Below, in pieces: positions 1 through 8,248 of a stretch of DNA of 10,628 nt; positions within the stretch are counted from its first letter, which is position 1; each line of letters begins with the position of its first letter. Position numbers and translations under genes: made by a program. Source of the stretch: a virus (taxonomy: Duplodnaviria > Heunggongvirae > Uroviricota > Caudoviricetes); the IMG/VR virus record IMGVR_UViG_2547132488_000018, positions 1 through 10,628 of that record. One strand, 5' to 3'. Under the pieces are notes generated by a model. It was not told the DNA's origin and searched no databases. It saw nothing but the letters and a program-made list of their open reading frames with translations.

Positions 1-127
1 CTGCAGTTCTCTGGAGTCACAGGCCCATTTCAGATCCTGTACCGCCTTAGCTTTCTTGATCATCCATTCGTAAATTTCATCATCGGTATAACCTGGCGCG
101 ATGATGACGGGTTCTGGTTTCTGCATA
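1..127 (-). CDS. Hypothetical protein, 5' portion only (start codon at 125-127, continues past window start)
   Basis: Reverse complement of 1-127 begins ATG and reads MQKPEPVIIAPGYTDDEIYEWMIKKAKAVQDLKWACDSRELQ with no stop; GAGGAA Shine-Dalgarno about 7 nt upstream on the minus strand (complement of 131-136). Not in the ORF track because it is truncated. Confidence 0.4.
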
Positions 128-315
128 TTGATTCCTCGCAGTACTGTTTCCCCTTAACGCCGGGGGGGCGGAACAAAAACCTGCTGCATAGTTAAAGTTG
201 AACCCTGCCGTCATGTTCTTACGCCTCGGGCTGGCTACTTACCCCCTGACCACTGCCTGGTAACTCGAAGTATTGCCCTGCGTTCTGTGGGGCGGGGTGG
301 GTTGGTGGAAATAAT

Positions 316-358
316 CTACAATTAAAAACTGTTTTGTGTCAACAGTTTTTAATTGTAG
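316..358. promoter_or_regulatory. Perfect 18-bp inverted repeat with 7-bp spacer; putative distal operator sharing a half-site with the repressor/cro intergenic palindrome
   Basis: CTACAATTAAAAACTGTT (316-333) + TTGTGTC + AACAGTTTTTAATTGTAG (341-358), exact reverse complements. Core AAAAACTGT / ACAGTTTTT recurs at 1354-1390. Confidence 0.4.
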
Positions 359-366
359 AGCTGGGC

Positions 367-392
367 AAAAAAACTCCCTCGAATGAGGGAGT
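367..392 (-). terminator. Rho-independent terminator for the leftward repressor-antitoxin-toxin operon
   Basis: Stem ACTCCCTC (373-380), loop GAAT, stem GAGGGAGT (385-392); on the minus strand the hairpin is followed by a U-run (complement of A-run 367-373). Lies about 17 nt past the parE-like stop at 409. Confidence 0.5.
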
Positions 393-408
393 ATGAAAAT
401 TGTTCAGT

Positions 409-696
409 TCAGATAGGGAAGGGAAATTGTCGGCGGGCATGCACAATATTTGCAATTTCAATGCTTGAAGCTGCTACTCGGTACAAAACGATATAATTAG
501 GGTGAACCACAATTTCCCGCAAACCGGATACTCGATCACTTGGCGGATATAGATATGGATGCTCGGAGAGGGCTAAAACAGACGTTTCAATACGTATTTT
601 TAGTCTGCGTGCTGCAGGAATATTTTCCTTAGCAATATAGGCTACGATCTGACGCAAATCATCGCGAGCAGATGGTAGCCATAAAATGGGTAACAT
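409..696 (-). CDS. parE2: ParE/RelE-superfamily type II toxin (ParE2-like)
   Basis: 95-aa ORF (MLPILWLPSARDDLRQIVAYI...VHPNYIVLYRV...IVHARRQ) with a ParE-like residue pattern; its start overlaps the upstream antitoxin stop by 1 nt (ATGA coupling). Family assignment is from recalled motifs, not a search. Confidence 0.75.
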   Translation of the reverse strand: MLPILWLPSARDDLRQIVAYIAKENIPAARRLKIRIETSVLALSEHPYLYPPSDRVSGLREIVVHPNYIVLYRVAASSIEIANIVHARRQFPFPI

Positions 697-887
697 TACT
701 CGCTCCTGTTAGTTACAGCAATTTGAGCAATAAGATTTTCTATTTCAGCCATTACCTCGTCATGTGGAATTGAGGGACGAGGGTCTGCAAGGCTTGACGC
801 CACTTTAGCGCGCAACCATTCGTTGTAACTGTTTTCTTGTTCGGTAGTTTCGAATTCTGAAACTATCGGAGAAAGGGCTGTACTCAT
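696..887 (-). CDS. paaA2: Small antitoxin, PaaA2-like (63 aa)
   Basis: 63-aa ORF immediately upstream of and coupled to the ParE-like gene; the size and position match the PaaA2 antitoxin of the paaR2-paaA2-parE2 module described in E. coli O157:H7. Confidence 0.65.
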   Translation of the reverse strand: MSTALSPIVSEFETTEQENSYNEWLRAKVASSLADPRPSIPHDEVMAEIENLIAQIAVTNRSE

Positions 888-914
888 GGCATAACTCCTC
901 TTCTTGTACAGTGG

Positions 915-1316
915 TCACGCCCGGCGGCTTTTTTGTGCCGCCAACCACCGGGCAATGGTTTCTTCCATTGATTTTTTCTTGTCTTTGATCTCTTGAAGCA
1001 TTTTTTCTTGGTCTTCCTCTGGAAACGCACTAAAAGCCTGAAGCAGTTCGCGTTGGCGAGGACCAATTTTCATCGTGTCAGGGGTGAAAATTTGCTCCCC
1101 CTCTTCAGGTGGCAATAAAAACCAATGCAATGGATGCCCTGTAACCTCAACCAGTTTATCCAAACTTGAGGCTTTAGGTGTAGCCTTACCGCTGACCCAT
1201 TGTTGAACAGTTTGTTGTGTCACACCAATTCTACGGGCCAGCTCAGCCTGGCTCCATCCAGTTTCCTGAAGAAGCTTGCTGATTCTGTACATAGATACTT
1301 CTAGAGCGTTCATCAT
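915..1316 (-). CDS. paaR2: XRE-family helix-turn-helix transcriptional repressor (PaaR2-like, CI-analog position)
   Basis: 133-aa ORF with a classic HTH (SQAELARRIGVTQQTVQQWVSGKATP); first gene of the leftward operon and divergent from the cro-like gene. No obvious Shine-Dalgarno upstream of the ATG at 1314-1316, so possibly leaderless. Confidence 0.7.
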   Translation of the reverse strand: MMNALEVSMYRISKLLQETGWSQAELARRIGVTQQTVQQWVSGKATPKASSLDKLVEVTGHPLHWFLLPPEEGEQIFTPDTMKIGPRQRELLQAFSAFPEEDQEKMLQEIKDKKKSMEETIARWLAAQKSRRA

Positions 1317-1337
1317 TATTCAATTTTACAGGTAAAT

Positions 1338-1413
1338 ACTGTTAAAAGCATCACAATAAAAAACTGTTGATCATATACAGTTTTTTATTGTAGGCTTTGC
1401 CTGTAGTTTTTTA
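1338..1413. promoter_or_regulatory. Divergent promoter/operator region between repressor and cro-like genes
   Basis: Inverted repeat CAATAAAAAACTGT (1354-1367) / ACAGTTTTTTATTG (1377-1390) with 9-bp spacer, plus further ACTGTT/CTGT motifs at 1338-1348 and 1401-1413. AGGAGG Shine-Dalgarno at 1414-1419 precedes the ATG at 1426. Confidence 0.5.
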
Positions 1414-1425
1414 GAGGAGGGCAAA

Positions 1426-1698
1426 ATGCTAGATAGCACTCGCGAAAAAATTAGGCAGAAATACACTCAAGCTGAAATAGGTCGTTATATGGGGGTCGCT
1501 CAACAGACTGTTTGGCAATGGTTTAGCTTTGGCGTTCCCCCAAAGCAGGTAATTCCGTTATGTCAGCTAATGAAGTGGGAAGTTACCCCGCATGAAATTC
1601 GCCCTGATATTTATCCTAACCCAACCGACGGGCTGCCTTGTGGAAATAAGTGTATGGCGAATGAATCACTGGCGGTGAACAATGAAAATCACCCCTGA
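1426..1698 (+). CDS. ydaS: Cro/YdaS-like HTH regulator
   Basis: 90-aa ORF with HTH (YMGVAQQTVWQWFSFG) and a C-terminal HEIRPDIYP motif recalled from YdaS-family proteins; strong Shine-Dalgarno; first rightward gene. Confidence 0.65.
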   Translation: MLDSTREKIRQKYTQAEIGRYMGVAQQTVWQWFSFGVPPKQVIPLCQLMKWEVTPHEIRPDIYPNPTDGLPCGNKCMANESLAVNNENHP

Positions 1699-2203
1699 AC
1701 AGGTTTGTGAGGCTCTGGATGCCTGGGTATGCCGACCAGGAATGACACAGGAGCAGGCGACGATATTAATCACGGAAGCATTCTGGGATCTGAAAGAACG
1801 CCCAAACATCGATGTTCAACGCGTCACGTTTGATGATGGCGCGGTTGATCAACGGGCGCTGGGCGTTAACCGGGTGAAGATATTCGAACGCTGGAAAGCT
1901 ATCGACACCAGGGATAAGCGTGAAAAATTCACGGCGCTGATTCCGGCAATTATGGAGGCGATCCGGTTCAGTGATTTCAGGTTGTATTGTGAAATTACTG
2001 ACGGAAAAAGCATTACATACATGATCGCCGGGTTAAACAAAGAATATGGCGATGTGGTGGAGTCCGGGCTGCTTTTTGCGGATCCAGCTGTTGTGGAACG
2101 TGAGACTGACGAGCTTATAGAAAAAGCCATTGCTTTCAAGCGTGCGTATCGTCAGCAATATCAACAAAAAGCCGGATGGAATTATGAGTCTTCTTTTTGC
2201 TGA
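1682..2203 (+). CDS. ydaT: YdaT-like protein (functional CII analog in CP-933P-type prophages)
   Basis: 173-aa ORF overlapping the cro-like gene by 17 nt; second rightward gene; the KREKFTALIPAIMEAI segment resembles what I recall of YdaT. Identity rests on recall and synteny. Confidence 0.55.
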   Translation: MKITPEQVCEALDAWVCRPGMTQEQATILITEAFWDLKERPNIDVQRVTFDDGAVDQRALGVNRVKIFERWKAIDTRDKREKFTALIPAIMEAIRFSDFRLYCEITDGKSITYMIAGLNKEYGDVVESGLLFADPAVVERETDELIEKAIAFKRAYRQQYQQKAGWNYESSFC

Positions 2204-3149
2204 ACGCCCACTGGTTATTAACACGCAGCTGGCGATGAAAATTGGTCTGAACGAAGCCATCGTGTTGCAGCAGCTGCATTACTGGTTGAGAGATACCGGT
2301 TCCGGCATGGAATGTGATGGTGTTCGCTGGATTTATAACACAACGGAACAATGGCTGGAACAGTTCCCGTTCTGGTCAGAGTCAACGTTAAAACGCGCAT
2401 TTGCAAGTCTGAAAGCGCTGGGGCTTTTGCGTTGTGAAAAGCTCAACAAATCAAAGCGTGACATGACTAATTTTTACACGATTAATTACGAGAGCGAGCT
2501 TTTAGATGGTGGCAAAGTGAGCGAATCCATCAGGTCAAAATGCGCCGCTCCATCAGGTCAAAATGACACGATGGAAGAGGCCAAAATGGCACGCTCCATT
2601 GGCTCAAAACGACCCAATGTCATCGGGTCAAAATGGCCTGATGATCTTACAGAGAATACAACAGAGATTACTACAGAGAATAAAAACACTTCTCGTCCGG
2701 AAGCTTCGCAACCGGACCAGCAGGCGGCTGAACAGGATTTTTTAACCCGACACCCTGACGCGGTTGTGTTCAGTGCGAAAAAACGCCAGTGGGGAAACCA
2801 GGAGGATTTAGCGTGTGCGCAGTGGATCTGGGGACGAATCGTGAGTCTTTACGAACAGGCTGCCAGCGATGATGGTGAGATCACGCGACCGAAAGAACCC
2901 AACTGGACTGCATGGGCCAATGACGTGCGCACAATGCGGATGCTTGATGGCAGAACTCACAGACAAATTTACGAAATGTTTGGTCGGGTACAGCGGGATC
3001 CATTCTGGGTAAAAAACGTCATGAGCCCGTCAAAGCTTCGCGAAAAATGGGACGAACTGGTCATCCGCCTGGGGCGTTCGCCTGTACAGCGTTGTGTGAA
3101 TCACATTTCTGAACCGGACACCGAAATTCCGCCGGGCTTCAGGGGGTAA
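2181..3149 (+). CDS. Phage replication initiation protein (lambda O-like / replisome organizer) with internal origin
   Basis: Winged-helix-like N-terminal domain, a low-complexity linker encoded by the iteron DNA, and a C-terminal domain. Start chosen at ATG 2181 (MSLLFAERP...) with GGATGG upstream; the ORF track's upstream in-frame start at 2130 is the alternative. Confidence 0.6.
   Translation: MMSLLFAERPLVINTQLAMKIGLNEAIVLQQLHYWLRDTGSGMECDGVRWIYNTTEQWLEQFPFWSESTLKRAFASLKALGLLRCEKLNKSKRDMTNFYTINYESELLDGGKVSESIRSKCAAPSGQNDTMEEAKMARSIGSKRPNVIGSKWPDDLTENTTEITTENKNTSRPEASQPDQQAAEQDFLTRHPDAVVFSAKKRQWGNQEDLACAQWIWGRIVSLYEQAASDDGEITRPKEPNWTAWANDVRTMRMLDGRTHRQIYEMFGRVQRDPFWVKNVMSPSKLREKWDELVIRLGRSPVQRCVNHISEPDTEIPPGFRG
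2526..2690. repeat. Replication origin: five iterons at 23-bp spacing followed by an AT-rich tract
   Basis: TCCATCAGGTCAAAATG at 2526-2542 and 2549-2565 (identical), degenerate copies at 2572-2588, 2595-2611 and 2620-2636, then AT-rich 2641-2690 with ACAGAGAAT-type repeats. Same architecture as ori-lambda inside gene O. Confidence 0.6.
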
Positions 3150-6611: not shown

Positions 6612-7013
6612 TCACTTACTATTATTTTTCGCCTTGAGCATCGCGTTGTAGTACGCTATATGAACACTACCGAGCTTTGGATAAGGGACATTATTTTTTC
6701 TTGGTGCCTTAGAGAAAAACTCTGTAGTAAAAGGCAGGATAGATGTTCTGGCTAAGTCAAATTTAGTATCGTAGCTTAACCCAGATAGACCAAAAACATC
6801 ATCGCCATCAGCTTTTTGAATAAGAAACTCTGATGGGTAGAGTTTGTGTGTTTTTTGGCTCGTACCGAATGCAACTATGATTTCATGCTTTAGTTTCGAT
6901 ACACCTAATACCATACCTGGTCTCATTTTGGGAGTATCTCCCCCCCATTCTTCAGATGGTTGAAACCAAACAATATCGCCAGTCTTTGGCAATGGTTTTA
7001 TTTTCGAATGCAT
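6612..7013 (-). CDS. PemK/MazF-like putative toxin
   Basis: 133-aa ORF; the N-terminal GDIVWFQPSEEWGGDTPKMRPGMVLGVSKLKHEIIVAFGTSQ matches the MazF/Kid pattern (G-D/E-I, K/R-RP-x-V/L-L/V, then a hydrophobic strand ending TS). AT-rich codon usage; contains a G7 tract on the coding strand (complement of 6940-6946). Confidence 0.5.
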   Translation of the reverse strand: MHSKIKPLPKTGDIVWFQPSEEWGGDTPKMRPGMVLGVSKLKHEIIVAFGTSQKTHKLYPSEFLIQKADGDDVFGLSGLSYDTKFDLARTSILPFTTEFFSKAPRKNNVPYPKLGSVHIAYYNAMLKAKNNSK

Positions 7014-7021
7014 TTTTATAC

Positions 7022-7297
7022 CTACAATAGCATTTCGAAACTCTCATCCGGCGTTTGGTTAGTTTTCGATCTTTCATGTAGTGTCCGGAATTGAGCTTCG
7101 GTCAAGGGCCCATCATCTTGCTCATAAGCCGGGATGTATTTTTCCACTAAGTTTACGAGTGCAAAATGCATGAGGTCTGTTTTACTCATACCAGTAGCTT
7201 TCATTAGTTTTTCAAAGGATTCAGAACTGATACCGTTGATACCATCTTCTTCTTTGAATCTAAGGAGGAAGCTGTCAGGCTTTTTCATGCGTGACAT
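7022..7297 (-). CDS. Putative antitoxin / small DNA-binding protein (possible ribbon-helix-helix)
   Basis: 91-aa ORF 8 nt upstream of the MazF-like gene; AAGGAG Shine-Dalgarno on the minus strand; predicted strand-helix-helix pattern and an acidic C-terminal tail. The fold is inferred, not demonstrated. Confidence 0.45.
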   Translation of the reverse strand: MSRMKKPDSFLLRFKEEDGINGISSESFEKLMKATGMSKTDLMHFALVNLVEKYIPAYEQDDGPLTEAQFRTLHERSKTNQTPDESFEMLL

Positions 7298-7650
7298 AAG
7301 GACTCCTTAATGTTTAATTTCCGAACTGTATCTAAATCAAAAAGATAGTTATGCGTGTTTTGACCTACTTTAGACAGTGCTTTCACTTCAAGCATTTTGG
7401 ATCTTATGAGCTTATACATAATCGCAAGTTTGAAGACTATTAAGCGTGTAATTAACAAAATTAGCATAATCAATGGGATGCTAATTTTGAATTTTTCATT
7501 TTTTACTGAAACAGTTTGGGGAAGATTTTGCCCCCCCCGAACTCGAAGGAAGTCAAAGAAATGGCCATGTTTTTCAACTATATCTATTAAAAGTTGTTCA
7601 ATTCTTTCGGTGAGCATTAACATATGCTTAACATCTGTGCTTAAGGTCAT
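7285..7650 (-). CDS. Hypothetical small protein with hydrophobic segment; first gene of the island operon
   Basis: 121-aa ORF with an AAGGA Shine-Dalgarno; overlaps the next gene by 13 nt; hydrophobic stretch IPLIMLILLITRLIVFKLAIM; contains a G8 tract on the coding strand (complement of 7531-7538). Confidence 0.4.
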   Translation of the reverse strand: MTLSTDVKHMLMLTERIEQLLIDIVEKHGHFFDFLRVRGGQNLPQTVSVKNEKFKISIPLIMLILLITRLIVFKLAIMYKLIRSKMLEVKALSKVGQNTHNYLFDLDTVRKLNIKESLCHA

Positions 7651-8002: not shown

Positions 8003-8248
8003 ATGTTTGATTTCAACATCGCAGCAAAATTAAAAGAAGAGCAGGACAAGGTTAGCGTTGATCTTGCAGCGTCCGGCGTTGCGTACAAGGAGAGCCTTAA
8101 TCAGCCAGTAGTTGCCGAACACGTAGCAAGAGAGCTGCCGGAACATCTGCGCGAATACTTCATGGACCGCGTTCGCCTTAGCCTGACACTGCCAAAAGCA
8201 TCCGATCCGTGTTATCTGGATATGGCAGTGCAGAACGAGAAAAAATAA
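8003..8248 (+). CDS. Hypothetical phage protein (81 aa)
   Basis: ORF with GAGGG Shine-Dalgarno 8 nt upstream; its stop overlaps the next ATG (TAATG at 8246-8250). Confidence 0.55.
   Translation: MFDFNIAAKLKEEQDKVSVDLAASGVAYKESLNQPVVAEHVARELPEHLREYFMDRVRLSLTLPKASDPCYLDMAVQNEKK

What the first reader, a model, noticed from the sequence alone, without database searches (positions are those of the whole stretch)
409..1316. Three-component toxin-antitoxin operon (repressor, antitoxin, ParE toxin) occupying the prophage immunity-repressor position
The leftward operon HTH regulator (133 aa), 63-aa antitoxin and ParE-like toxin (95 aa) matches the paaR2-paaA2-parE2 layout described for E. coli O157:H7 cryptic prophage CP-933P. 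It sits exactly where lambda has cI, divergent from cro-like and CII-analog genes. The prophage repressor is therefore co-transcribed with a toxin-antitoxin pair, linking immunity to addiction. This is a known but notable arrangement.
Basis: partly seen in the sequence, partly recalled or inferred. Interest (0 to 1): 0.55.

Follow-up and report, generated by a model that had tools for sequence, protein, structure and literature searches.

The report
Prophage repressor operon carrying PaaA-ParE toxin-antitoxin
This is the immunity-repressor operon of a lambda-like E. coli prophage, with a ParE toxin and PaaA antitoxin behind the repressor gene; it is a close copy of the paaR1-paaA1-parE1 system of E. 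coli O157:H7, so it is real but ordinary.

Summary
Three leftward ORFs lie at 915-1316 (133-aa HTH regulator), 696-887 (63-aa PaaA antitoxin) and 409-696 (95-aa ParE toxin). They are packed as one operon and end at one intrinsic terminator.

- The nearest relative is not paaR2-paaA2-parE2 of CP-933P (proteins 37/63.5/67% identical). It is the paralogous operon of prophage Sp4/CP-933M, paaR1-paaA1-parE1 (97.7/88.9/86.3% protein identity, 90.6% DNA identity).
- Only the regulator sits where lambda has cI. The toxin-antitoxin pair sits where lambda has rexAB.

The surrounding switch is intact:
- five ACAR-N7-YTGT operators, found only at a PL/OL site (318-356) and an OR site (1328-1391);
- a PRM-like promoter with the same geometry as the mapped leaderless paaR2 promoter;
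- divergent Cro-like (YdaS) and CII-like (YdaT) genes and an O-like replication gene.

The regulator is a DicA-family repressor with a 434-repressor-like recognition helix and no LexA/CI cleavage domain. The module matches 842 of 5426 complete E. coli genomes. The arrangement was published in 2010 and 2021.

Two minor new points: the PaaR regulators are modular, and a recombination patch is confined to parE.

The parts
313..342 (-). PL-like sigma-70 promoter reading leftward: TTGACA (342..337), 18-nt spacer, TAGATT (318..313)
   Evidence: It is the only promoter-like consensus match in 150-1800, at 10 of 12 positions. It lies inside the OL palindrome. Its position corresponds to PL933P, which was shown to be repressed by PaaR2 and YdaS in CP-933P (PMC8630535). 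Its activity here is inferred.
318..356 (.). OL: two 15-bp operators, 318-332 (ACAATTAAAAACTGT) and 342-356 (its inverted copy), 24 bp start to start. They form a perfect palindrome with 19-nt arms.
   Evidence: The motif ACAR-N7-YTGT occurs 5 times in 10.6 kb, only at OL and OR (0.76 expected; 0 of 200 shuffles reach 5). The sites are conserved in Sp4 and in strain SC407.
373..392 (-). Intrinsic terminator of the paaR-paaA-parE transcript: an 8-bp GC-rich stem with a 4-nt loop, followed by U7
   Evidence: Found by the consensus scan. The RNA fold gives -16.5 kcal/mol, z=-4.55, with 0 of 200 shuffles folding as well.
409..696 (-). parE: ParE-family toxin, 95 aa, ortholog of ParE1 of Sp4/CP-933M
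   Evidence: Pfam PF05016 at 59.1 bits. PDB 5cw7 ParE2 at E=1.2e-37. It is 86.3% identical to Sakai ECs_1067 and 67.4% to ParE2. dN/dS against Sp4 is 0.06.
696..887 (-). paaA: PaaA-family antitoxin, 63 aa, with no DNA-binding domain
   Evidence: Pfam PF21217 PaaA2 at 76.9 bits, its only Pfam hit. PDB 3zbe at E=4.4e-22. NCBIfam NF050103 at 94.1 bits. It is 88.9% identical to ECs_1068 and 63.5% to PaaA2.
915..1316 (-). paaR: prophage repressor, 133 aa, with an N-terminal 434-like HTH and the C-terminal domain of the PaaR/DicA family
   Evidence: HTH_3 at 50.8 bits and Phage_CI_repr at 26.3 bits. 434 repressor at E=2e-5, with recognition helix TQQTVQQ against TQQSIEQ. It is 97.7% identical to Sakai ECs_1069, annotated 'phage repressor protein'. 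The C-terminal ~45 aa are shared with PaaR2. It is a full-length homolog of DicA (28% identity, E=2e-12).
1323..1351 (-). PRM-like promoter for a probably leaderless paaR mRNA: -35 ATGCTT (1351..1346), 17-nt spacer, -10 TAAAAT (1328..1323), then 6 nt to the ATG at 1316. There is no Shine-Dalgarno sequence.
   Evidence: Read from the sequence. The geometry is the same as in CP-933P: TTGCTT, 17 nt, GATAAT, 6 nt, ATG. There, 5' RACE placed the transcription start on the A of the paaR2 ATG (PMC8630535). Positions 1300-1371, which include this promoter, differ from Sp4 and SC407 only at 1305 and 1309, inside the paaR coding sequence. Activity is inferred.
1328..1391 (.). OR: three 15-bp operators at 1328-1342 (ACAGGTAAATACTGT), 1353-1367 (ACAATAAAAAACTGT) and 1377-1391 (ACAGTTTTTTATTGT), spaced 25 and 24 bp apart
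   Evidence: In the three-way alignment all substitutions within OR fall in the non-operator spacer 1373-1376. The first site lies in the PRM spacer, the second abuts the -35 hexamers of both PRM and PR, and the third lies in the PR spacer.
1367..1396 (+). PR-like promoter reading rightward: TTGATC (1367-1372), 18-nt spacer, TAGGCT (1391-1396). Its layout parallels the PL-like promoter.
   Evidence: Read from the sequence. The 41-nt elements that carry PL/OL and PR/OR are 78% identical direct copies (D1). It fell below the threshold of the consensus scan, so it is inferred.
1426..1698 (+). ydaS-like cro analog, 90 aa, preceded by the SD sequence GAGGAGG at 1414-1420
   Evidence: Pfam YdaS_toxin at 38.8 bits. 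phrog_35 'transcriptional repressor' at 3e-22. It is 83% identical to Sp4 ECs_1070 and 25% to CP-933P YdaS.
1682..2203 (+). ydaT-like cII analog, 173 aa, a type different from those of Sp4 and Sp12
   Evidence: Pfam YdaT_toxin at 26.1 bits. phrog_163 'CII-like transcriptional activator' at 1.2e-40. It is only 36-37% identical to the Sp4 and Sp12 YdaT proteins.
2130..3149 (+). O-like replication initiation gene, which marks the right edge of the immunity region (context)
   Evidence: phrog_391 'replication initiation O-like' at 4.8e-95.

Best explanation
Bases 147-1650 are the immunity cassette of a lambdoid E. coli prophage of the DicA/PaaR type. The leftward operon paaR-paaA-parE is an ortholog of paaR1-paaA1-parE1 of O157:H7 prophage Sp4/CP-933M.

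Repressor and switch (inferred from site positions and from the CP-933P experiments). PaaR is the CI-analog repressor. It has a 434-like HTH that most likely reads ACAA/ACAG half-sites in 15-bp operators, three at OR and two at OL. Its short helical C-terminal domain probably drives oligomerisation. Binding at the two right-hand OR sites would block PR, which drives ydaS/cro and ydaT/cII. The middle site abuts the -35 of PRM and could activate it. The left-hand site sits in the PRM spacer and could auto-repress. The two OL sites would block PL, and OL-OR looping over 1035 bp is plausible. paaR is probably translated from a leaderless mRNA that starts at its ATG.

Toxin-antitoxin pair. paaA and parE are on the same transcript. 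Packing and the single terminator are shown in the sequence; co-transcription was demonstrated for the paralog. PaaA has no DNA-binding domain and neutralises ParE by wrapping around it. This is inferred from the sequence similarity of both proteins to the solved PaaA2-ParE2 complex (4.4e-22 and 1.2e-37). In the characterised paralog PaaA is labile.

Consequence. Supply of antitoxin depends on the lysogenic promoter. Cells that lose the immunity region are therefore poisoned by the remaining ParE, a nucleoid-associated toxin that induces SOS. This couples prophage immunity to addiction.
For: - Gene identities.
- Orthology to Sp4: 90.6% DNA identity over all 908 bp, the Sakai annotation 'prophage Sp4 / phage repressor protein / plasmid stabilization system protein', and protein identities of 97.7/88.9/86.3%.
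- Sp4 is CP-933M (PMC2884950). CP-933M holds the paralog of paaR2A2E2 (PMC8630535). The two paralogs do not cross-neutralise (review PMC4803016 citing Hallez 2010).
- Operators: five sites, all in the control regions. A phylogenetic footprint places OR substitutions only between the sites.
- Terminator.
- PRM geometry is identical to that of the experimentally mapped leaderless paaR2 promoter.
- Purifying selection acts on parE (dN/dS 0.06) and paaR (0.08).
- The same context (exo, dicB, DUF1391, parE, paaA, HTH regulator, YdaT, replication genes; a divergent cro-like gene is annotated in 5) appears in six independent E. coli prophages.
- Mechanism shown in the paralog: PaaR2 and YdaS footprints over OR; repression of PR, PRM and PL; activation of PRM at low PaaR2; octamerisation; bistability; addiction (PMC8630535).
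Against: - Nothing here was tested experimentally. Every functional step is transferred from the paaR2 paralog, whose repressor shares only its C-terminal domain with this one and whose operators (GTTTAGTAA repeats) are unrelated.
- The PR-like -10 (TAGGCT) and PRM-like -35 (ATGCTT) hexamers are weak, and the consensus scan did not report them.
- No PRE or YdaT-operator analog was found.
- paaA has 7 non-synonymous against 2 synonymous differences from Sp4 (dN/dS about 1). Antitoxin function in one of the two lineages therefore cannot be assumed with certainty.
- In CP-933P neither transcriptional state released ParE2, so the physiological role beyond addiction remains open.
Confidence: 0.88

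Rival explanations
1. The toxin-antitoxin pair is mainly a lysogen-expressed anti-phage (abortive infection or exclusion) module, like lambda rexAB whose position it occupies. Addiction would be a side effect.
For: paaA-parE sits exactly where rexA-rexB sits, downstream of the repressor on the lysogenic transcript (PMC9986795; layout). Qin has the same DicA-type immunity region without the pair. The pair is therefore an accessory insertion (a 'moron'), as defence genes often are.
Against: ParE and PaaA have no hit in PADLOC-DB. The characterised paralog was shown to be addictive, and its authors proposed that it stabilises the immunity region. No defence phenotype has been reported in the papers read.
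Confidence: 0.08
2. The repressor and the toxin-antitoxin pair are independent neighbours: a canonical self-regulated two-gene TA locus with its own promoter that happens to lie next to a prophage repressor.
For: The review reports that the PaaA-ParE complex alone partially represses the operon promoter.
Against: Only 27 nt separate paaR from paaA, and they carry an SD sequence but no promoter-like match. There is one terminator, after parE. PaaA is 63 aa, and its only domain is the toxin-binding PaaA2 motif, with no RHH or HTH. Co-transcription from the promoter upstream of paaR was shown for the paralog. The three genes stay adjacent in every locus examined.
Confidence: 0.03
3. The operon is a decaying, non-functional remnant of a cryptic prophage.
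For: Many carriers are cryptic prophages. A PaaA homolog is found in only 1 of 50,697 deposited phage genomes. paaA shows dN/dS of about 1 against Sp4.
Against: All three ORFs are intact and of full family length. parE and paaR are under strong purifying selection. The operators, promoter geometry and terminator are conserved across alleles. The window also keeps intact cro-like, cII-like, O-like, DUF968 and RusA genes.
Confidence: 0.03

Closest known systems
paaR1-paaA1-parE1 of E. coli O157:H7 prophage CP-933M / Sakai Sp4 (ECs_1069-1068-1067; Hallez et al. 2010)
   Same: Gene order, lengths (133/63/95 aa), spacing, operators, terminator and flanking cro-like gene are the same. DNA identity is 90.6% over the operon and 91.5% over window 147-1650. 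The repressor is 97.7% identical, and all five operator sites are conserved. The two should therefore belong to the same immunity group.
   Different: parE is a different allele: 78.8% DNA identity and dS 1.36, against dS 0.05-0.2 in the flanking genes. PaaA differs at 7 residues, three of them (27, 30, 36) in the region that aligns to the Pfam PaaA2 toxin-binding motif (residues 16-48). The downstream CII-like gene is unrelated in type (36% identity), and homology ends at about 1650.
paaR2-paaA2-parE2 of CP-933P / Sp12 (Jurenas et al. 2021; structures 3zbe, 5cw7)
   Same: Both are three-gene leftward operons in a lambdoid immunity region, divergent from ydaS and ydaT. The PRM geometry is the same: a -35 hexamer, 17 nt, a -10 hexamer, then 6 nt to the ATG. 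The C-terminal domain of the regulator is shared, and PaaA and ParE are 63.5% and 67% identical.
   Different: The N-terminal DNA-binding domain of the regulator cannot be aligned (37% overall identity). The operators are unrelated (ACAR-N7-YTGT here, GTTTAGTAA repeats there). The Cro analog is 25% identical. According to the literature the two antitoxins do not cross-protect.
DicA-DicC immunity region of cryptic prophage Qin (E. coli K-12)
   Same: The regulator is a full-length homolog of DicA (28% identity, E=2e-12), including the C-terminal ELLxxFxALPE motif. In both cases a leftward promoter region follows the repressor gene and leads toward dicB. In Qin and in near-identical relatives of the window its first gene is DUF1391/ydfA, but the window's own left-end ORF has no Pfam hit.
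   Different: Qin has no toxin-antitoxin pair between dicA and ydfA. The match scores below the NCBIfam DicA cut-off (52.6 bits against 101). The operators differ.
Lambda cI-rexA-rexB / 434 repressor
   Same: The position and logic are the same: a repressor transcribed leftward from PRM, apparently leaderless; three OR sites about 24 bp apart; OL sites about 1 kb away; and accessory genes on the lysogenic transcript. The recognition helix keeps the three Gln residues of the 434 repressor, and the half-sites are ACAA-like. The 434 operator ACAA-N6-TTGT is cited from established knowledge.
   Different: There is no Peptidase_S24/LexA-type cleavage domain, so RecA-mediated autocleavage is not expected. 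The operators are 15 bp rather than 14 or 17. OL has two sites rather than three. The accessory genes are a toxin-antitoxin pair rather than rexAB.

Membership tests
ParE toxins (RelE/ParE superfamily, Pfam PF05016) | Full-length match to the family profile above the curated cut-off | tested here: met
   59.1 bits against a cut-off of 23, covering residues 4-91 and profile positions 1-89 of 89.
ParE toxins (RelE/ParE superfamily, Pfam PF05016) | Sequence similarity to a ParE with a solved structure | tested here: met
   ParE2 (5cw7/5cze) at E=1.2e-37 over residues 1-93. Two other ParE structures match at 2.5e-6 and 1e-4.
ParE toxins (RelE/ParE superfamily, Pfam PF05016) | Toxicity through interference with DNA topology (gyrase poisoning or SOS induction) | not testable with these tools
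   This needs expression assays. Even for ParE2 the target is stated to be unresolved.
PaaA antitoxins (Pfam PF21217) | PaaA2 toxin-binding motif above the curated cut-off | tested here: met
   76.9 bits against a cut-off of 27, covering the full 33-position profile. PDB PaaA2 3zbe at E=4.4e-22.
PaaA antitoxins (Pfam PF21217) | No DNA-binding domain, with regulation delegated to a third protein | tested here: met
   The protein is 63 aa and PaaA2 is its only Pfam hit. The NCBIfam hit is the 45-position antitoxin model only.
PaaA antitoxins (Pfam PF21217) | Neutralises its cognate ParE only and is degraded by Clp proteases | not testable with these tools
   This is known for the paralogs from the literature.
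paaR-paaA-parE three-component systems | Gene order regulator-antitoxin-toxin on one strand, packed as an operon | tested here: met
   There is a 27-nt gap, a 1-nt overlap and one terminator after parE.
paaR-paaA-parE three-component systems | Regulator homologous to PaaR1 or PaaR2 | tested here: met
   97.7% identical to Sp4/CP-933M ECs_1069. The C-terminal ~45 aa are conserved with PaaR2, while the N-terminal domain differs from PaaR2.
paaR-paaA-parE three-component systems | Located in a lambdoid immunity region, divergent from ydaS/cro-like and ydaT/cII-like genes | tested here: met
   with prophage context.
paaR-paaA-parE three-component systems | Leaderless paaR mRNA | tested here: inconclusive
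   The spacing of -10 hexamer, 6 nt, ATG is identical to the mapped CP-933P promoter, and there is no SD sequence. A transcript start has to be mapped experimentally.
paaR-paaA-parE three-component systems | Repressor binds repeated operators at OR and at a distal PL/OL | tested here: inconclusive
   Five conserved ACAR-N7-YTGT sites sit at exactly these two places. Binding itself was not tested.
Lambda CI / LexA-type repressors | C-terminal Peptidase_S24 self-cleavage domain | tested here: not met
   None of the 17 Pfam hits is S24, and the protein is only 133 aa. It is a functional analog of CI, not a family member.
DicA (NCBIfam NF007257) | Score above the curated cut-off | tested here: not met
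   52.6 bits against a cut-off of 101. It is a full-length homolog at 28% identity, so a relative and not an equivalog.

The most novel reading that the evidence does not exclude
The paaA-parE cassette is a mobile insertion into DicA-type immunity regions, and its toxin gene is exchanged by recombination independently of the antitoxin and repressor. Here a patch at about 417-673 has dS 1.36, against 0.05-0.2 in the flanks, while PaaA shows mostly non-synonymous change. This could reflect diversification of toxin-antitoxin specificity. Such diversification would let hetero-immune or even homo-immune prophages carry non-cross-neutralising addiction modules, as O157:H7 does with its two paralogs.
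Probability: 0.2. Interest if true: 0.4.

Novelty: already known. Interest (0 to 1): 0.15.

Why it matters
The locus is a clean, intact example of a prophage that wires an addiction module to its lysogenic promoter, but that principle has already been published. It can serve as a well-annotated PaaR1-type reference: operators, promoters, terminator, and cassette borders at 147 and about 1650. This type has been studied far less than the PaaR2 type. It also shows that PaaR repressors are modular, with at least four different N-terminal DNA-binding domains on one conserved C-terminal domain. It gives a concrete, testable operator prediction (ACAR-N7-YTGT, read by a 434-like helix). None of this changes current understanding.

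Tried and rejected
- CP-933P-type YdaT operator (TTGATT-N6-AATCAA). None lies at the ydaS/ydaT junction, and matches elsewhere are below chance (5 found, 8.8 expected). A scan for short inverted repeats in 1500-1800 found nothing convincing. No PRE analog could be assigned.
- Isolated phages. No deposited phage carries this immunity module at megablast level; only the PL leader (147-320) matches. tblastn with PaaA finds one record of 50,697, phage Evi, which has a PaaR2-type regulator. The idea that the window comes from a known isolated phage was dropped.
- Defence-system membership. ParE and PaaA have no PADLOC hit.
- Solved structure for the regulator's C-terminal domain. There is none; only HTH-domain hits were found.
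- First assumption of direct orthology to paaR2A2E2. This was rejected after fetching Sp12 and Sp4 from Sakai.
- The large protein-database searches, structure prediction and metagenome scans were not used, because identity was settled by Pfam, PDB and the E. coli genome collection.
Full report
**Observation**

The window holds three minus-strand ORFs at exactly the reported coordinates: 915-1316 (133 aa), 696-887 (63 aa) and 409-696 (95 aa). The sequence shows that they are packed as an operon.
- The paaR stop codon (917-915) is 27 nt from the paaA ATG (887), with AGAGGAG 7 nt upstream of that ATG.
- The paaA stop and the parE start share one base (TAATG at 696), and an AGGAG lies just upstream.
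- The only intrinsic-terminator-like element on that strand after the operon is an 8-bp GC-rich hairpin followed by seven U, at 392..373. It folds at -16.5 kcal/mol, z=-4.55.

**Identity of the three proteins**

- The 95-aa protein matches Pfam ParE_toxin end to end (59.1 bits, cut-off 23). It matches the crystallised ParE2 of E. coli O157:H7 (5cw7) at E=1.2e-37.
- The 63-aa protein matches Pfam PaaA2 (76.9 bits, cut-off 27) and the PaaA2 structures 3zbe and 5cw7 at E=4.4e-22. It has no other domain, and therefore no DNA-binding domain.
- The 133-aa protein has an N-terminal Cro/CI-type HTH (HTH_3 at 50.8 bits; Phage_CI_repr at 26.3 bits). Its closest solved relative is the 434 repressor (E=2e-5). 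It has no Peptidase_S24 domain.

**Which known system it is**

In Sakai the whole 908-bp operon matches prophage Sp4 at 90.6% identity. The genes there are annotated 'phage repressor protein', 'hypothetical protein' and 'plasmid stabilization system protein' (ECs_1069-1067). I also fetched the Sp12 immunity region (ECs_2279-2281), which is paaR2-paaA2-parE2; Sp12 is identical to CP-933P according to PMC8630535.

| Protein | Identity to Sp4 | Identity to Sp12 |
|---|---|---|
| Regulator | 97.7% | 36.9% |
| Antitoxin | 88.9% | 63.5% |
| Toxin | 86.3% | 67.4% |
| Cro-like | 83% | 25% |

Sp4 is the Sakai counterpart of CP-933M (PMC2884950). CP-933M carries the paralog of the paaR2 system (PMC8630535). 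The two paralogs coexist without cross-neutralisation (PMC4803016 citing Hallez 2010). The window therefore holds an ortholog of paaR1-paaA1-parE1.

A 99.2% identical copy sits in a prophage integrated next to ompW in E. coli SC407. Its context is int, xis, exo, dicB and DUF1391 on the left, and YdaS-like, YdaT-like and replication genes on the right. In total 842 of 5426 complete E. coli genomes have a match, and 542 have at least 80% coverage.

**The switch around the operon**

A 41-nt palindromic element occurs twice, at 318-358 and at 1353-1393. It resolves into 15-bp sites of the form ACAR-N7-YTGT. The window has five such sites and no others in its 10.6 kb (0.76 expected; 0 of 200 shuffles reach five).
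- OL has two sites, at 318-332 and 342-356.
- OR has three sites, at 1328-1342, 1353-1367 and 1377-1391.
- Start-to-start spacing is 24-25 bp, as in lambda OR.

In a three-way alignment with Sp4 and SC407, every site is conserved within OR. The substitutions in OR fall in the 4-bp gap between the last two sites, which gives a small phylogenetic footprint.

The OL palindrome contains the one consensus promoter hit of the region, reading leftward: TTGACA, 18 nt, TAGATT. The OR copy has the parallel TTGATC, 18 nt, TAGGCT reading rightward toward the SD sequence GAGGAGG and the ydaS ATG at 1426.

Upstream of paaR there is no SD sequence. The order is instead ATGCTT, 17 nt, TAAAAT, 6 nt, ATG. This is the same geometry as TTGCTT, 17 nt, GATAAT, 6 nt, ATG in CP-933P. 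There, 5' RACE and N-terminal sequencing showed a leaderless paaR2 mRNA.

The regulator's recognition helix (TQQTVQQ) keeps the three glutamines of the 434 repressor helix (TQQSIEQ). Those glutamines read ACAA half-sites in 434; this is established knowledge that was not tested here. That fits the ACAA/ACAG half-sites found.

**Mechanism, with shown and inferred steps separated**

Shown in the sequence:
- the gene identities;
- the operon packing and single terminator;
- the operator-like repeats located only at the two control regions;
- the promoter geometry.

Shown experimentally only for the paralog (PMC8630535; PMC4803016):
- co-transcription of the three genes;
- PaaR2 binding over OR;
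- repression of PR and PL, and activation of PRM at low repressor levels;
- octamerisation of PaaR2;
- YdaS acting as Cro and YdaT acting as CII;
- bistability of the locus;
- lability of PaaA2 to ClpXP/ClpAP;
- ParE2 association with the nucleoid and SOS induction;
- addiction.

Inferred for this locus:
- the regulator binds the five sites;
- the two right-hand OR sites occlude PR;
- the middle OR site, centred about 44 bp upstream of the paaR ATG, activates PRM;
- the left-hand OR site, in the PRM spacer, auto-represses;
- OL and OR loop over 1035 bp;
- loss of the cassette stops PaaA supply and frees ParE.

**Comparison with other relatives**

Alignment of regulators from six further loci shows a conserved C-terminal segment of about 45 residues (LLQxFxAFPxE...ARWxAAQKxRRA). 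It is joined to at least four unrelated or distant N-terminal HTH domains. The adjoining PaaA and ParE stay 63-89% identical to the window's proteins.

The regulator is also a full-length homolog of DicA of the K-12 Qin prophage (28% identity, E=2e-12). It scores below the NCBIfam DicA cut-off. In Qin, dicA is followed directly by ydfA (DUF1391)-ydfB-ydfC-dicF-dicB, with no toxin-antitoxin pair. paaA-parE therefore looks like an accessory insertion between a DicA-type repressor gene and its terminator and PL. That is the rexAB position, as PMC9986795 says for CP-933P.

**Mosaic structure**

Homology to Sp4 runs only from 147 to about 1650 and ends inside the 3' end of ydaS. The CII-like gene is of another type, 36% identical to Sp4 YdaT. 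No CP-933P-type YdaT operator is present.

Within the cassette, parE stands out.

| Gene | DNA identity to Sp4 | dS | dN/dS |
|---|---|---|---|
| parE | 78.8% | 1.36 | 0.06 |
| paaA | about 95% | 0.05 | about 1 (7 non-synonymous, 2 synonymous changes) |
| paaR | about 96% | 0.14 | 0.08 |
| ydaS (codons 1-72) | about 95% | 0.20 | 0 |

The window's parE allele is as far from the Sp4 allele as from alleles attached to other immunity types. This suggests a recombination patch confined to the toxin gene. The number of loci compared is small, and I did not pursue the point.

**Novelty and verdict**

The arrangement, its regulatory logic and its addictive behaviour are published (Hallez 2010 through; Jurenas 2021). 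The particular allele is 99% identical to sequences annotated in RefSeq. The nearest relative is the CP-933M/Sp4 paralog rather than CP-933P. The toxin-antitoxin pair sits in the rexAB position rather than the cI position.

I rate the finding as already known and of low interest. The small additions are an explicit operator model for the PaaR1 immunity type, the modularity of the PaaR/DicA family, the parE recombination patch, and the near absence of PaaA from deposited phage genomes (1 of 50,697) despite matches to the operon in 15.5% of complete E. coli genomes.

Noticed in passing
window 6612-7650, minus strand: Three tightly packed ORFs (121, 91 and 133 aa) are transcribed against the early-right operon in the nin region. 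They have no hit in PHROGs, NCBIfam, PADLOC or the PDB, and only a sub-threshold Pfam PemK/MazF match for the 133-aa protein (20.3 bits against 23.1). The segment 6300-8300 occurs in only 4 of 5426 complete E. coli genomes. It may be a rare accessory, toxin-antitoxin or defence cassette.
   Followed up: partly
window 417-673 (inside parE): Against the Sakai Sp4 ortholog, parE has dS 1.36 and 78.8% DNA identity, while flanking paaA, paaR and ydaS have dS 0.05-0.2 and about 95-96% identity. This looks like a recombination patch confined to the toxin gene. paaA has 7 non-synonymous and only 2 synonymous differences.
   Followed up: partly
window 147 and about 1650: Sharp mosaic junctions sit here. 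Homology to Sp4 and to other carriers starts at 147 and ends near 1650, inside the 3' end of ydaS. This delimits an exchangeable immunity cassette: PL leader, OL, parE, paaA, paaR, OR and cro-like gene.
   Followed up: partly
window 1682-2203: The CII-like YdaT protein is 173 aa and only 36-37% identical to the 141-aa YdaT proteins of Sp4 and Sp12, which are 86% identical to each other. No TTGATT-N6-AATCAA operator and no PRE analog was found at the ydaS/ydaT junction.
   Followed up: partly
window 8003-8248, plus strand: A prophage-borne homolog of the DNA polymerase III theta subunit (HolE/HOT-like; Pfam PF06440, 86.6 bits).
   Followed up: no
loci L002, L004-L008 (regulator genes): PaaR-type regulators are modular. 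A conserved C-terminal segment of about 45 aa, also recognisable in DicA of Qin, is joined to at least four different N-terminal HTH domains (123, 132/133 and 166 aa forms), while PaaA and ParE remain adjacent.
   Followed up: partly
phage collection; L009 (phage Evi, LR597642.1): A PaaA homolog is encoded in only 1 of 50,697 deposited phage genomes. By contrast, the operon DNA (window 409-1316) matches 842 of 5426 complete E. coli genomes. In phage Evi the parE gene downstream of paaA is not annotated.
   Followed up: no
window 1-126, minus strand: The 5' part of a leftward ORF (ATG at 126) has no Pfam hit. It is 84% identical in DNA to the start of Sp12 ECs_2283, not to the DUF1391 gene that follows PL in SC407, Sp4 and Qin.
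   Followed up: partly
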